Shown one piece after another: positions 7,055 to 15,519 of a DNA stretch of 64,000 bases. Location of the stretch: positions 1 through 64,000 of the forward strand of contig CAUYUJ010000274.1 of assembly GCA_963575745.1 (NCBI GenBank). The letters are read 5' to 3'. The DNA is from Prorocentrum cordatum (taxonomy: Eukaryota). The stretch's first letter is position 1; each line of letters starts with the position of its first letter. Made by a program: the position numbers and the translations under genes. Under the pieces are notes generated by a model, which was not told where the DNA came from, searched no databases, and saw nothing but the letters and a program-made list of their open reading frames with translations.

Positions 7055-7081
7055 GATTGCGCAACTCCCTCTTTCCTACTC
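7055..7081 (+). repeat. Left target-site duplication of the LINE (27 bp)
   Basis: GATTGCGCAACTCCCTCTTTCCTACTC is identical to 15493-15519. Confidence 0.92.
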
Positions 7082-7304
7082 CTCCTCCTCCTCCTCCTCC
7101 TCCTCCTCCTCCTCCTCCTCCTCCTCCTCCTCCTCCTCCGCCTCCTCCTCCGCCTCCGCCTCCGCCTCCGCCTCAGCCGCCGCCTCCTCCTCCTCCTCCT
7201 CCTCCTCCTCCTCCTCCTCCTCCTCCTCCTCCTCCGCCTCCTCCTCCTCCTCCTCCTCCTCCTCCTCCTCCTCCTCCTCCTCCTCCTCCTCCTCCCCTCC
7301 TCCT

Positions 7305-7326
7305 TCCGTAGCCATTTTGGCTCAAG
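7305..7326 (+). other. Complete dinoflagellate spliced-leader (DinoSL) sequence at the LINE 5' end
   Basis: TCCGTAGCCATTTTGGCTCAAG matches DCCGTAGCCATTTTGGCTCAAG 22/22. It is followed by GCTAATG and then the element 5'UTR. Confidence 0.95.
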
Positions 7327-7524
7327 GCTAATGCTTTTGCGGGCTGAGCCCGTATTGGCTTCCACGGAGACCGCTAGTCCGCGGCAGTGCCAGAGCGTTT
7401 GCGCTCGACAGCTTACCGCCTACACCGAGGGGTTGGGCTCCCTCATCAGTTTTGTCGCCACGGCCAGGCTGCCTGGCTACGGTACGGCCGTCACTGCTCT
7501 TGTCTCTCGTTCTGTGCGGGCATC

Positions 7525-13000: not shown

Positions 13001-15015
13001 TGAGTTTGGCAGATCGTGTCAAGAACAAAGGGCTGACCTGGGCGGTGGTGCGCGGCCCACTGAGTGCAGCATGGCTCACGCTTAACAGAATTGGCTGGAC
13101 ATTTCTTGGACCTCATCACTGGCGTAGCGACCAAGGCGAGGATTTTGATCTCCTGCGAGTGGCACCAGCCGACATGAAGGTATATCTGGAGGACTCGATC
13201 AAGCGGTGGCAGGTGCAGCGGCTGGTCTATCACTTGCCTGTGCAGGAGGCGTCTCACGATGTCTGGGAACGAGCTCTTCGACTTGGGCTCCGTGACTTGA
13301 GGCAGGCGCCGCTTGGAGCGCTGAGGGCACTGTGGGCTGATCGGTACCCCACTGCTGCCCGCCTTGCTGCATGGGGAAAAGATGTGAAAGTGCACTGTGC
13401 AGCCTGTCAGTCAGATGACGGATCCTTCGGGCATGTTTGGCACGGATGTCCCAGCTTGTTGCAGCCCGATGAGAGCGAGGAGGCTTCTGGTGTTGAGGTC
13501 TTGTGTGAGAGACACGCGTCTCATCGGGATGCGCCGCGGGCTCTTGGACACCGCCCCCCGCTCGATCCTGAGTTTGACAGACTCTATTTTAGTTACGGTT
13601 TTCCGAGGCTCTCGATCCAGCTTCCATCCCCGCCTGAAACTTCGGTGGTTTGGGAGTGGGGTGACGTTGGGGGTGAGTGGGGGCATGTTACTTTCGGGGA
13701 TGGAAGCGCACAGCACCCCGCCGCGCCTGAAGTCAGGCGAGCGGGGTGGGCCATAGTTCAGCTCAACGATGCGCTCCTCCCTGTCCGCGCGGTGTTTGGA
13801 TCCCTGGAGGGCGCCGTCCAGACCGTGGGCAGAGCGGAGAGAACTGCGCTCCTGCACGCCATGAGGCGTAATCCCAGCATGGAGGTTTTTGTTTCGGATT
13901 TGCTTTCTCTGGTCCAGGAAGGCTTGTCTTGGGACCCTGAATTGGCGTGCGGAATGAATAGATACGCTGCCATCTGGAGGAGTGTCTTTGAGCTGGCGCA
14001 GCGTAGGCCTGTCCAGGACCCTCCCCCTCACTTCGTGTGGACCCCCGCTCACCTCTCTCTCGAGGAAGTCCTGGAGCGAGAACTGGACCCGATAACCCGG
14101 ATCGGGAATGCGTGGGCCGACCTGTTTGCCAAGCTAGCTTCGACTAGGGCCATGATAGCTAGGACGACGGCAGAGGCTGTCGCAGGCGAACTCAAGTTTC
14201 ATCGTGCTACCATTGGGTATATCTCCTGGGCTGCGGCCAGGCTTGCCCGACTCAGACGGTGGACTTCTCTGCCCCCGCCGTCGAGTGTTTGTCGACCCCA
14301 GCCTGCGCCGCAGCTCAGCTTGCATGGTCATTCCTTTTTCCTCGACCCTGACTCAGGAGAGGTGAGATGCATCTCATGTTTCGTCGGGGCATGGACCTGC
14401 AGCACCTTGGCGCATCTGTGTAACGGCCCCTCCAAGTTTTGCCGACCCTCGGCCCTTTCAGCCCTCAAGGGGCAGGAGTGGTTGCGGGTGCGAAATCTAG
14501 CGCGGCCTGTGAAGGCTGCTGCTGTTGTCGAAGCGGACCAGGCCCTGGTGGCTGAGGGTCTGCTGCCGCCCCTTCCTCCCCCTGGAAACCCCACGGGAAA
14601 CGAGAGAGAGGCGGCCATCTGTGATTTTGAGTCGAGAGGTCACACGATCGAGAAGTATGATCGTGTGATGATTTGTTCCACCTGTGCTGGCTTTGTGTTG
14701 CTTCCGCATGGTGTCCCTCGTGCCCTGATGGCCAAGTGTCAGGGCGCTTCCAAGGTGCCATCAACCAGGGACAAACAGTTGCGGAAGCTCTCCAAGGCCT
14801 CCAGAGGCCTGCACCCGTCTACGGGCGAGGTCCTCTTCTGTGCCCAGGGCCCTGTCCCCTCCTCGGCTATGTCCTCCCCTCAGGCTTCTTCCTCCATGTC
14901 ATCTACGGTGGCCTGCGCCTCTCGTCCTGAGAAGGCCACCACTACCGATGGTAAGGGGGTGGGGCGGTTGGAGCGGCGGAGCGGGCGGGGGGGGGTTTCG
15001 GATGACTCTGATTAA
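9958..15015 (+). pseudogene. LINE ORF2: APE endonuclease, reverse transcriptase, zf-RVT-like finger and RNase H, broken by two frameshifts (~10730, ~11335)
   Basis: APE: VTVNV, LLVQEHH, GVAVLV, GNIY, IGGDWN, PHCPV. RT: LLDLTKAFD, QGILAGC, LVDD. Finger: CAAC..GHVWHGC. RNase H: FGDGS, QTVGRAE, FVSD, WTPAH, GNAWADLFAK. The last 1226 aa are open. Confidence 0.92.
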
Positions 15016-15492
15016 CTCGTTTTGTTCTTCGGCGTCGGCGCTGCTGCCTTCGCCCGCTGCCGCCGCTGGCGGCCGCCTCCTGTACGCGAAGTTCAGCATG
15101 TTCGCGCCAGGCGCGCCCTGCTGTCTCCCGCGTGCCTGCGTCCTCTAGCCTAGGGTTGTTCGTTCCCGCGGACGACCCTCTGTCGGCGCCCACCTCCTCC
15201 CCTCCTCCTCCTCCTCCTCCTCCTCCTCCTCCTCCTCCGCCTCCTCCGCCTCCGCCTCCGCCTCCGCCTCCTCCTCCCTCTCCTCCTCCTCCACCGCCGC
15301 CTCCGCCTCCTCCTCCTCCTCCGCCTCTCCTCCTACGCCTCCTAACCCATTCCCTCCTCCTCCTCCCTCCTCCCTCCTCCCTCCTCCCTCCCCCTCCTCC
15401 CTCCTCCTCCTCCTCCTCCTCCTCCTCCGCCTCCTCCTCCTCTCCTCTCCTCCTCCTCCTCCTCCTCCTCCTCCTCCTCCTCCTCCTCCTCC

Positions 15493-15519
15493 GATTGCGC
15501 AACTCCCTCTTTCCTACTC
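15493..15519 (+). repeat. Right target-site duplication of the LINE (27 bp)
   Basis: Identical to 7055-7081. Confidence 0.92.

What the first reader, a model, noticed from the sequence alone, without database searches (positions are those of the whole stretch)
7055..15519. (CCT)n at both ends inside a 27-bp TSD: a retroelement that may write the genome's CCT/GGA microsatellites
Seen: TSD-(CCT)~75-SL-LINE-(CCT-rich ~300 bp)-TSD, with no poly(A). The 5' tract lies upstream of the SL, so it cannot be part of a trans-spliced RNA. The target is a dispersed repeat whose relative at ~40366-40500 has no CCT at this position. Inference: either the RT adds or template-jumps onto CCU repeats at both priming and completion, or a TSD-flanked CCT tract came first and the LINE targets CCT microsatellites. 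Either would help explain the extreme CCT/GGA density here. The TSD is long for an APE LINE and itself ends in CCT-like bases (TTCCTACTC), suggesting microhomology priming.
Basis: partly seen in the sequence, partly recalled or inferred. Interest (0 to 1): 0.82.

Follow-up and report, generated by a model that had tools for sequence, protein, structure and literature searches.

The report
Dinoflagellate LINE with CCT-rich tails
A jumping gene in a dinoflagellate-type genome carries the host's spliced-leader tag at its head, ends in a CCT-rich tail instead of poly(A), and has a second copy of that tail in front of its head; this is best read as a known kind of copying accident, not as the source of the genome's many CCT repeats.

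Summary
An exact 27-bp direct repeat (7055-7081, 15493-15519) encloses a 223-nt CCT tract, a complete 22-nt DinoSL, a ~7.9-kb APE/RT/RNase H LINE, and a 300-nt CCT-rich tail with no A-run.

New here:
- The two tracts share a collinear impure signature, (CCT)n-CCG-(CCT)2-3-(CCGCCT)3-4. No other CCT/GGA locus among the 31 in the window has it. The 5' tract is therefore a copy of the LINE's own tail, not a generic microsatellite.
- TPRT geometry puts the CCT-like end of the TSD at the 5' (second-strand) junction. The priming end (GATTG) has no homology to CCU.

Best reading: one cDNA carrying a tail-to-head joint, made by template jump or inherited read-through. The rival is insertion into an earlier orphan tail.

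The "writes the genome's microsatellites" claim is mostly unsupported in this window:
- No other tract adjoins a fragment of this LINE.
- Only 1-2 of 31 loci have flanking repeats.

Partial support does exist. A second, unrelated LINE remnant also has sense CCT tracts at both ends. One GGA tract has a 25-nt imperfect TSD beside an empty paralog. Ends of other family copies could not be retrieved.

The parts
7055..7081 (.). Left copy of the 27-bp target-site duplication. Its last bases, CCTACTC, abut the 5' CCT tract.
   Evidence: Exact match to 15493-15519 with no extension. Unique in the window. Controls.
7082..7304 (+). 5' CCT tract of 223 nt: (CCT)18-19 CCG (CCT)3 (CCGCCT)4 CAG CCG CCG (CCT)17 CCG (CCT)19 CC (CCT)3. 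Read as a copy of the LINE's own proximal tail.
   Evidence: Run-length structure. The 15-mer CCGCCTCCGCCTCCG occurs only here and in the 3' tract. A shared 31-nt impure block ranks 2nd of 465 tract pairs.
7305..7326 (+). Complete 22-nt dinoflagellate spliced leader (DinoSL, D=T).
   Evidence: Consensus quoted in PMC7245778.
7327..7524 (+). 5' UTR. The leader 7305-7473 is shared with another, more abundant element.
   Evidence: Loose ends 'behind 7473' appear in all 4 runs laid. First-bin depth in X1 is 302 against 24-117 in the next 28 bins (the last bin, 14967-15215, is 9.5).
7525..8697 (+). ORF1, 390 aa. It has an N-terminal W-x-C-x2-C...C-x2-C zinc-finger-like motif (seen by eye) and a coiled-coil-like middle.
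   Evidence: Pfam gave only weak sub-threshold hits.
8729..15015 (+). ORF2 (APE - RT - zf-RVT - RNase H) in four frame pieces, with breaks near 9852, 10730 and 11334. APE motifs lie at about 10162-10820. RT motif A is at 12130-12156 and motif C (VDD) at 12406-12426. The zinc knuckle is at 13396-13452 and the RNase H motifs at 13690-14127.
   Evidence: Translations. Pfam gave Exo_endo_phos E=0.001 and zf-RVT E=1.2e-4, both below cut-off. The family profile hits human L1 ORF2p at 6.4e-13, R2 at 1.6e-9, RNase H at 1.2e-10 and ExoIII/L1 EN at about 1e-5. Of 15 long relatives, 11 carry RVT_1, Exo_endo_phos or RNase_H. Contigs with extra bases at the three break points are, table 4.
15016..15192 (+). 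3' UTR, with a predicted 12-bp hairpin at 15153-15178, about 15 nt before the tail.
   Evidence: RNA fold -81.1 kcal/mol, z -3.5, 1 of 200 shuffles as good. Coordinates.
15193..15492 (+). CCT-rich 3' tail of 300 nt with no poly(A). The proximal part carries the CCG/(CCGCCT)n signature. The middle holds non-repeat bases (ACG..AACCCATTC) and CCCT units. The distal part is (CCT)9 CCG (CCT)4 .. (CCT)14.
15493..15519 (.). Right copy of the TSD. The target is the 5' arm plus loop of a hairpin (AACTCCCTC / GAGGGAGTT).
   Evidence: DNA fold -15 kcal/mol, z -3.9, 0 of 200 shuffles as good.
40448..40505 (+). Paralog of the left flank plus TSD, without any CCT tract (an 'empty-like' relative).
   Evidence: 84.6% over 52 nt. 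Alignment A1.
21828..25505 (-). Second, unrelated and degenerate LINE remnant. The 5' CCT-rich tract is at 25405-25505. The RT-to-C-terminus body is at about 22008-25374, with no APE. The CCT-rich tail is at 21828-21953. All are in sense on the minus strand.
   Evidence: All 24 tblastn HSPs outside the first LINE fall at 22588-25374 on the minus strand, best E 3.5e-12. Sequence. Chance of sense tracts within 80 bp of both ends is 0.0028. No TSD was found.
33018..33198 (-). Candidate orphan tail. A 131-bp GGA tract (CCT on the minus strand) at 33043-33173 lies between imperfect 25-nt direct repeats (21/25). The paralog at 32697-32790 has one copy of the repeat and no tract.
   Evidence: alignment A3.

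Best explanation
This is one retro-insertion of an APE/RT/RNase H LINE in a dinoflagellate-type genome.

Shown:
- The LINE RNA carried the host spliced leader at its 5' end.
- It ended in a templated CCU-rich region of about 300 nt instead of poly(A).

Inferred sequence of events:
1. The bottom strand was nicked at the left edge of the 27-bp target. Reverse transcription started on the CCU-rich end without primer-template homology.
2. The cDNA ran to the first base of the SL.
3. The cDNA then continued on the CCU-rich 3' region of a second LINE RNA (an end-to-end template jump). Alternatively, the template was a read-through RNA from a parent copy that already had this tail-to-head joint.
4. 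The resulting (AGG)n 3' end of the cDNA paired with the CT-rich top-strand end ...TCCTACTC, 27 nt downstream.
5. That pairing primed the second strand and fixed the TSD.

The 5' CCT tract is therefore a partial second copy of the LINE tail. The whole is a 'tail fragment + full-length element' chimera inside one TSD.
For: - A single exact 27-bp TSD encloses both tracts.
- The SL is complete to its first base, so the cDNA reached an RNA 5' end or copied through a complete relic.
- The two tracts share a collinear signature, (CCT)n CCG (CCT)2-3 (CCGCCT)3-4 ... CAG/CCA CCG CCG (CCT)n CCG.
- The 15-mer CCGCCTCCGCCTCCG occurs at 7150/7156 and 15246/15252 and nowhere else on either strand.
- Their 31-nt shared impure block is 2nd of 465 tract pairs, and 460 pairs share none.
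- The priming-side TSD end, GATTG, has no CCU homology. The 5'-junction end, TCCTACTC, matches CCT repeats in 7 of 8 positions (sequence, plus TPRT geometry, which is established knowledge).
- The tail contains non-repeat bases and inherited variants, so it is templated rather than added by slippage alone.
- The outer event happened at a non-microsatellite site, so CCT targeting is not required.
- Chimeric retrocopies inside one TSD, made by LINE template switches, are documented (PMC2104539, abstract).
- The family is multicopy. In run X1, 457 of 567 laid pieces are 90-99% alike.
Against: - No other copy's 5' or 3' junction could be seen. The tool cut contigs at 7282-7309, and the 3' UTR bin had almost no cover. 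Whether the joint is recurrent is therefore unknown.
- The overall alignment score of the two tracts (140) is not special. Two other loci score 158 and 141 against the 5' tract. The case rests on the (CCGCCT)n signature, which is itself a short repeat and could arise twice or spread by gene conversion.
- The 5' tract resembles the proximal part of a tail, not the distal part. A jump therefore needs a donor RNA with a shorter or different tail.
- There are no extra nucleotides at the CCT|SL joint to mark a jump.
- The second LINE remnant with tracts on both sides fits CCT targeting at least as well.
Confidence: 0.5

Rival explanations
1. Two successive insertions. First, an extremely 5'-truncated copy (tail only) of the same family landed here and made the 27-bp TSD. 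Later, a full-length SL-capped copy inserted into that orphan CCT tract. Its CCU tail annealed to the nicked (AGG)n strand, as poly(A) does with T-rich primers for L1. Its own TSD is hidden in CCT units.
For: - This explains the shared signature and the enclosing TSD equally well.
- The 5' tract begins like the start of a tail.
- A top-strand end that pairs with (AGG)n would favour tail-only products.
- APE LINEs that insert into microsatellites, including TTC, are known (PMC3812793, passage).
- The second LINE remnant has sense CCT tracts at both ends, chance 0.0028.
- One GGA tract looks like an orphan tail, with a 25-nt imperfect TSD and an empty paralog.
Against: - The first event used a primer (…CAATC-3') with no CCU homology at a non-microsatellite site, so annealing-dependent targeting is not obligatory.
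- If the LINE simply favours CCT tracts, hitting one derived from its own family is unlikely. None of the 29 other loci carries the signature, and at most 2 of 31 show flanking repeats.
- No internal CCT-unit TSD or old/new tail boundary can be recognised in the 3' tract.
Confidence: 0.3
2. The RT adds CCU/AGG repeats at both priming and completion, in a telomerase-like or slippage manner. Through full and abortive insertions it is a main writer of the genome's CCT/GGA microsatellites.
For: - CCT-rich ends appear on 2 of 2 LINE copies in the window.
- There is one candidate TSD-flanked orphan tract.
- CCT/GGA tracts cover 8.4% of the window.
- Non-LTR elements are an accepted source of microsatellites (PMC3812793, abstract in listing and passages).
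Against: - Tract variants are collinear and include non-repeat bases, which points to templating.
- No fragment of the LINE lies next to any other tract.
- The signature is absent from 29 other loci.
- 30 of 31 loci have no exact flanking repeat of 8 nt or more. With mismatches allowed, only 2 of 31 score 13 or more, and one of those is GC-rich low complexity. In controls, 2 of 449 reach that score.
- Tracts attached to the two LINEs make up about 750 of 5355 tract bases.
- Another dinoflagellate has a different dominant trinucleotide, (TTG)n at about 19% of the genome, with no transposon link claimed in the passages read (PMC7245778).
Confidence: 0.08
3. The LINE inserted into an ordinary, pre-existing CCT microsatellite. 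The 27-bp repeat and the shared signature are unrelated to retrotransposition and come from local duplication, gene conversion between the two tract halves, or assembly error.
For: - CCT tracts are very common here, about one locus per 2 kb.
- The two halves of one split microsatellite would naturally look alike.
Against: - A split microsatellite gives two different halves, not two collinear copies of one pattern.
- An exact 27-nt non-repeat duplication placed precisely at the outer edges was not approached by any control. The maximum was 12 nt in 449 controls.
- The paralog has one copy of the 27-mer and no tract.
Confidence: 0.05

Closest known systems
Chimeric retrocopies made by LINE reverse-transcriptase template switching (U6-L1 type in mammals; WEIRD/Mg-SINE/MGL chimeras in Magnaporthe; PMC2104539, abstract read)
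   Same: Two RNA-derived parts are fused head to tail in one orientation. The upstream part is the 3' portion of a second RNA. One TSD encloses the whole, and the tail stands only at the far 3' end.
   Different: Here the second template would be another RNA of the same LINE, and only its CCU-rich tail was copied. The product looks like a microsatellite at both ends. The jump itself is inferred, not shown.
Microsatellite-targeting APE LINEs: Koshi (TTC), Kibi (TC), Dong (TAA), Waldo (ACAY), Mino (AC) (PMC3812793, passage read)
   Same: A LINE has the same microsatellite on both sides in a fixed orientation, and it is a polypyrimidine trinucleotide as for Koshi.
   Different: The outer junctions of this copy lie in unique sequence with a 27-bp TSD, not in a microsatellite. 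Both tracts carry the element's own tail signature. Clade membership (R1/Tx1-like) was not tested.
LINEs with simple-repeat 3' ends and a 3' stem-loop ('stringent' type: I factor (TAA)n, CR1/L2, eel UnaL2). Recalled from general knowledge; no call.
   Same: There is no poly(A). The element ends in a short tandem repeat preceded by a predicted hairpin, and priming needs no target homology.
   Different: The tail is unusually long (300 nt), is a degenerate CCT-rich region with inherited variants, and a copy of it also sits at the 5' end.
DinoSL-tagged retrogenes / mRNA recycling in dinoflagellates (PMC6050394, PMC12014239, PMC7245778; passages read)
   Same: A genomic copy begins with the spliced leader, showing reverse transcription of a trans-spliced RNA.
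   Different: The retrocopy is the retrotransposon itself, with a full SL, an exact TSD and no poly(A). The passages read say the RT responsible for retrogenes is unknown and favour LTR elements.
Human LINE-1 ORF2p (PDB 8uw3, 8sxt, 9k6g)
   Same: It is the best solved-structure sequence match of the family profile (E 6.4e-13, RT region). The APE-RT order is the same.
   Different: This family adds an RNase H domain and a long N-terminal extension. This copy alone does not reach Pfam RVT_1. The tail is not poly(A).

Membership tests
APE-type non-LTR retrotransposon (LINE) | Reverse transcriptase domain with catalytic motifs | tested here: met
   - Motif A (LLDLTKAFD) and motif C (LVDDVSV) are present.
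- The copy alone gives no RVT_1 hit at E<=5.
- Relatives at 25-40% identity (E 1e-25 to 1e-101) carry RVT_1 in 9 of 15 scanned.
- The family profile hits L1 ORF2p at 6.4e-13 and R2 at 1.6e-9.
APE-type non-LTR retrotransposon (LINE) | Apurinic/apyrimidinic-type endonuclease N-terminal to the RT | tested here: met
   - Exo_endo_phos E=0.001, 19.3 bits, below the 24.5 cut-off.
- QEH and GDWN motifs are present.
- 5 of 15 relatives reach the family.
- The profile hits ExoIII at 1e-5 and L1 EN at 2.9e-5.
APE-type non-LTR retrotransposon (LINE) | Target-site duplication and no terminal repeats of the element body | tested here: met
   An exact 27-bp TSD. Apart from the CCT tracts, no long direct repeats were found between the ends.
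DinoSL-tagged retrocopy | Spliced leader encoded in DNA at the 5' end of the retro-copied unit | tested here: met
   22 of 22 nt match DCCGTAGCCATTTTGGCTCAAG at 7305-7326.
Microsatellite-specific LINE (Koshi/Kibi/Dong/Waldo/Mino type) | Copies inserted inside pre-existing microsatellites, with junctions (and any TSD) made of repeat units | tested here: not met
   For the outer junctions of this copy, the TSD is unique sequence and the paralog lacks CCT. Other copies could not be examined.
Microsatellite-specific LINE (Koshi/Kibi/Dong/Waldo/Mino type) | Phylogenetic placement with those clades | not tested
   No reference sequences of those elements were available from a tool.
Template-switch chimeric retrocopy | Two retro-copied parts in the same orientation inside one TSD, the 5' part being the 3' portion of another RNA | tested here: met
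   One TSD. The 5' tract is collinear with the proximal tail and shares its unique signature.
Template-switch chimeric retrocopy | Made in a single event (no intermediate state) | not testable with these tools
   This needs empty or intermediate alleles, or many other copies. No genome is held, and two metagenome scans were empty.
Simple-repeat-tailed ('stringent') LINE | 3' end is a short tandem repeat, not poly(A) | tested here: met
   A 300-nt CCT-rich end, with no A-run of 4 or more in 14900-15520. A second LINE remnant also ends CCT-rich.
Simple-repeat-tailed ('stringent') LINE | Conserved 3' UTR stem-loop recognised by the RT | tested here: inconclusive
   A hairpin is predicted at 15153-15178 (z -3.5). 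Conservation could not be checked because the 3' UTR bin was barely covered.

The most novel reading that the evidence does not exclude
These dinoflagellate LINEs routinely finish first-strand synthesis by copying a CCU-rich tail a second time. Every insertion then carries tail copies at both ends. The 5' copy acts as an adaptor that pairs with CT-rich top-strand DNA to prime the second strand and set the TSD length. Abortive events leave TSD-flanked orphan CCT tracts, which then seed and attract further insertions. This would account for a measurable share of the genome's 8% CCT/GGA load, and by analogy for lineage-specific trinucleotide floods such as (TTG)n in Polarella.
Probability: 0.15. 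Interest if true: 0.8.

Novelty: new variant of a known kind. Interest (0 to 1): 0.5.

Why it matters
Three points matter.

1. Passages in a 2018 review (PMC6050394) state that it is unknown which retroelement makes the very numerous DinoSL-tagged retrogenes of dinoflagellates, and they favour LTR elements. Here a multicopy LINE shows the full signature of target-primed reverse transcription of an SL-capped RNA: a complete SL plus an exact TSD. LINE machinery is thus a concrete, testable candidate. Its non-poly(A) tail, however, argues that it may be choosy about templates.

2. It adds a long, templated CCT-rich tail to the known range of LINE 3' ends. It also offers a clean natural example of a tail-to-head joint.

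3. It gives a precise genome-wide test for whether LINE tails contribute to the extreme trinucleotide-repeat loads of dinoflagellate genomes. On the 64 kb examined, the answer is "at most a minor share".

Tried and rejected
- Whole genome: none is held, so the genome-wide census was replaced by window-level tests.
- Other copies of the LINE: the search for related loci on metagenome contigs found 92 pattern matches and no relative. An SL+5'UTR 22-mer scan of metagenome contigs found 0. The search for related loci on viral contigs found 71 pattern matches and no relative.
- The search of earlier findings by place, sequence and words returned nothing relevant.
- Sequencing runs: no RNA holder was listed, so expression and RNA ends could not be addressed.
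- Read laying cut contigs at 7282-7309 and left the 3' UTR bin nearly uncovered in X1. Neither junction of other copies could be read. One X7 contig shows ...TCC directly before a variant SL joined to 7332. Three bases are too few to count.
- A single-sequence PDB search found no hits. A 4-sequence profile gave only a chance hit. The 32-sequence profile worked.
- TSD of the second LINE: no exact repeat of 8 nt or more. Local alignment found only low-complexity matches within the null range.
- Whole-tract alignment as evidence of homology was rejected. The score of 140 beats 500 of 500 triplet shuffles, but two unrelated loci score higher.
- Microhomology at first-strand priming was rejected on TPRT geometry.
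- Literature: searches (0 papers) listed no paper on a dinoflagellate LINE with an SL and CCT tail or on LINE-derived trinucleotide repeats in dinoflagellates. This covers only the held open-access library. Supplements were not opened.
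Full report
**Observation.** The 27-mer GATTGCGCAACTCCCTCTTTCCTACTC stands at 7055-7081 and again at 15493-15519. The identity stops exactly at both edges, and none of its 12-mers occurs anywhere else in the window. Between the two copies, in order, lie:
- a 223-nt CCT tract (7082-7304);
- the complete 22-nt spliced leader TCCGTAGCCATTTTGGCTCAAG (7305-7326);
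- a 7.9-kb coding body;
- a 177-nt 3' UTR;
- a 300-nt CCT-rich tract (15193-15492).

No run of four or more A occurs in 14900-15520. The leader equals the dinoflagellate consensus quoted in PMC7245778. The window is 60.8% G+C, so this is a high-GC dinoflagellate-type genome. I do not assign a species.

**The element.** ORF1 (7525-8697) has a zinc-finger-like N-terminus, seen by eye. ORF2 runs from about 8729 to 15015 in four frame pieces.
- On its own the copy is a weak match to curated families: Exo_endo_phos E=0.001 and zf-RVT E=1.2e-4, both under the Pfam cut-offs, and no RVT_1.
- Homology is nevertheless clear. A full HMMER scan found 2357 relatives at E<=0.001.
- Of 15 long relatives, 11 carry RVT_1 (9), Exo_endo_phos (5) or RNase_H (2), and 4 carry none.
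- A 32-sequence family profile headed by this copy hits human LINE-1 ORF2p (6.4e-13), an R2 protein (1.6e-9), retroviral-type RNase H domains (1.2e-10) and ExoIII/L1 endonucleases (about 1e-5).
- RT motifs A and C, APE motifs and RNase H acidic motifs are readable in the translation.

It is an APE-RT-RNase H LINE.

**Copy number and state of this copy.** Contigs of four public runs were laid on 7282-15215.
- In X1, 567 pieces lay on it: 110 at 99% or more, 232 at 95-99% and 225 at 90-95%. All 30 bins were covered.
- Two marine metagenomes held 59 and 54 pieces.
- X1 may be the source sample, so multicopy status rests on the 457 diverged pieces.
- Extra bases appear in other contigs at exactly the three places where this copy changes frame. 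At 11334 they account for all laid depth in X1 and X2. At 9852 and 10730 they account for a minority of X1 depth (table 4). This copy is therefore broken or mis-assembled at those points, while some relatives have the other length.
- The leader 7305-7473 continues into a different sequence in all four runs, and its depth is several-fold higher. It is shared with another element.
- One X1 contig joins 7329 to 13029, which indicates an internally deleted relative.

**The two tracts are related to each other.** Written as run lengths:
- 5' tract: (CCT)18-19 CCG (CCT)3 (CCGCCT)4 CAG CCG CCG (CCT)17 CCG (CCT)19 CC (CCT)3.
- 3' tract start: (CCT)2 CC (CCT)12 CCG (CCT)2 (CCGCCT)3 CCG (CCT)3 CCCTCT (CCT)3 CCA CCG CCG CCT CCG (CCT)5 CCG ...

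The 15-mer CCGCCTCCGCCTCCG occurs at 7150/7156 and 15246/15252 and nowhere else on either strand. Among 465 pairs of the 31 CCT/GGA loci, 460 share no impure block of 12 nt or more. This pair shares 31 nt, the second longest.

The plain alignment score is not specific. It is 140 and beats 500 of 500 triplet shuffles, but two unrelated loci score 158 and 141. I therefore rest the claim on the signature only.

The 3' tract also holds non-repeat bases (ACG, AACCCATTC), which argues for a templated tail. Conclusion: the 5' tract is a partial copy of the LINE's own proximal tail.

**Which end primes.** In target-primed reverse transcription, the bottom strand is nicked at the left edge of the future TSD, and that 3' end primes the cDNA on the RNA's 3' end. 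The top strand is nicked at the right edge, and that end primes the second strand on the cDNA's 3' end (established mechanism).

Here the first primer ends ...GCGCAATC-3', which has no complementarity to CCU. The top-strand end ...TCCTACTC-3' matches CCT repeats in 7 of 8 positions and abuts the 5' tract. The target is the 5' arm and loop of a hairpin (z -3.9). A 12-bp hairpin is predicted just before the tail (z -3.5).

**Is the LINE the writer of the CCT/GGA load?** Tracts cover 8.4% of the window: 54 tracts merged into 31 loci.
- No fragment of this LINE, by DNA or protein, lies anywhere else in the window.
- None of the other 29 loci has the tail signature.
- An exact flanking repeat of 8 nt or more, with at least 4 non-tract bases, is absent in 30 of 31 loci. 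The one exception is a GC-rich 14-mer inside a tandem repeat. In controls, 10 of 449 cross pairs had 8-12 nt.
- With mismatches allowed, 2 of 31 loci score 13 or more, against 2 of 449 controls.

In this window the strong claim fails.

**Two results keep a weaker version alive.**
- All 24 tblastn matches of family relatives outside the first LINE fall on the minus strand at 22588-25374. This is a second, unrelated, degenerate and 5'-truncated LINE. Its sense strand ends in a 126-nt CCT-rich tract (21953-21828), and a CCT-rich tract (25505-25405) sits directly at its truncated 5' end. Random intervals have sense tracts within 80 bp of both ends in 0.28% of 200,000 trials (a post hoc test). No TSD was found.
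- The GGA tract at 33043-33173 lies between 25-nt repeats that agree in 21 of 25 positions. A paralog 300 bp away (32697-32790) has one copy of that sequence and no tract. This is what an orphan tail with a decayed TSD would look like, though local slippage is not excluded.

**Models.** I give 0.5 to a single cDNA that already carried the tail-to-head joint. The joint arose either by an end-to-end template jump from the SL end onto the CCU-rich 3' region of another LINE RNA, or because the template was an unspliced read-through RNA from a parent with the same joint.

I give 0.3 to two steps: an orphan tail first, then a full-length copy inserting into it by tail annealing.
- For the single event: the outer event did not need CCT. 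Under simple CCT targeting, the chance of hitting a tract of the LINE's own family looks small, since none of the 29 other loci has the signature.
- For two steps: the 5' tract looks like the start of a tail. A CT-rich top-strand end would favour tail-only products. The second LINE fits targeting.
- Untemplated addition at both ends, with genome-wide writing, gets 0.08.
- A generic microsatellite target with an unrelated duplication gets 0.05.

**Comparison with known systems.** Chimeric retrocopies inside one TSD made by LINE template switches are known (PMC2104539, abstract). APE LINEs that insert into microsatellites, including TTC, are known (PMC3812793, passage). That non-LTR elements seed microsatellites is known (same review). 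Simple-repeat-tailed LINEs are known (recalled). DinoSL-tagged retrocopies are known.

The new elements are:
- the combination of these features in a dinoflagellate LINE;
- a long templated CCT-rich tail;
- a tail copy at the 5' end.

My searches listed no paper describing this. They cover only the held open-access library.

**Limits.** No genome is held for this window. Two metagenome scans and one viral-contig scan found no relatives. No RNA run was listed. Junctions of other copies were not readable. All inferences about recurrence rest on one full copy, one remnant and one candidate orphan tract in 64 kb.

**Side result.** A scan of viral contigs for the 21-nt SL core, meant to find more retrocopies, instead returned 119 stretches, almost all in AT-rich giant-virus MAG contigs. 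Among 134 distinct sites:
- 123 have AAAA[AT]TGA upstream, and in 119 of those the motif ends 40-42 nt before the SL core;
- 127 have A before the core;
- 115 are followed by an ORF open for at least 60 codons.

This looks like giant viruses that hard-code the host leader gene by gene. It is reported under Noticed in passing.

Noticed in passing
window 21828-25505 (minus strand): A second, unrelated and degenerate LINE remnant, covering the RT to the C-terminus with no APE. CCT-rich tracts in sense orientation sit at both its truncated 5' end (25405-25505) and its 3' end (21828-21953). No TSD was found. The chance of both-sided tracts is 0.0028.
   Followed up: partly
window 33018-33198, paralog 32697-32790: A 131-bp GGA tract lies between imperfect 25-nt direct repeats (21/25). 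A nearby paralog has one copy of the repeat and no tract. This is a candidate TSD-flanked orphan tail, or alternatively local slippage.
   Followed up: partly
window 32254-32505 (+) and 33063-33177 (-): Two CCT tracts in inverted orientation, about 560 bp apart, share CACAATGT(CCT)n. Their 38-nt common block is the longest of all 465 tract pairs. The origin is unknown.
   Followed up: no
loci L001-L119 (IMG/VR viral contigs, mostly GVMAG giant-virus bins): The exact DinoSL core is encoded many times per contig in AT-rich giant-virus MAGs.
- 134 distinct sites were found.
- 123 have AAAA[AT]TGA upstream (resembling the mimivirus early-promoter octamer, recalled). In 119 of these the motif ends 40-42 nt before the core.
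- 127 have A before the core.
- 115 have an ORF of at least 60 codons starting a median 49 nt after the SL.
- Pfam on 36 of the 78 SL-led ORFs of 150 aa or more gave DUF4116 in 8, CCCH fingers in 2, ABC_tran in 1 and nothing in 25.

This reads as leader mimicry hard-coded gene by gene. A DinoSL on a +ssRNA virus is in print (passage in PMC9651163). Searches listed no paper on this in giant DNA viruses.
   Followed up: partly
window 7305-7473 and 7329/13029: The SL plus the first 147 nt of the 5' UTR is a module shared with another, more abundant element. Loose ends appear behind 7473 in all 4 runs. One X1 contig fuses SL+3 nt to 13029, indicating an internally deleted relative.
   Followed up: no
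window 6813-6935 and copies near 2391, 38337, 42853, 45650, 48178, 55956: The left flank of the insertion belongs to a dispersed repeat containing GACTATTTTT-like units, 73-83% alike. The insertion target itself is a hairpin.
   Followed up: no
window 46297-46458: An internal array of about 26 units of GGGTTA (telomere-like hexamer), 84% matches.
   Followed up: no
window 15801-16443 and 16444-16543: A 90-bp tandem repeat of about 7 units lies 280 bp to the right of the insertion and runs into a 100-N scaffold gap.
   Followed up: no
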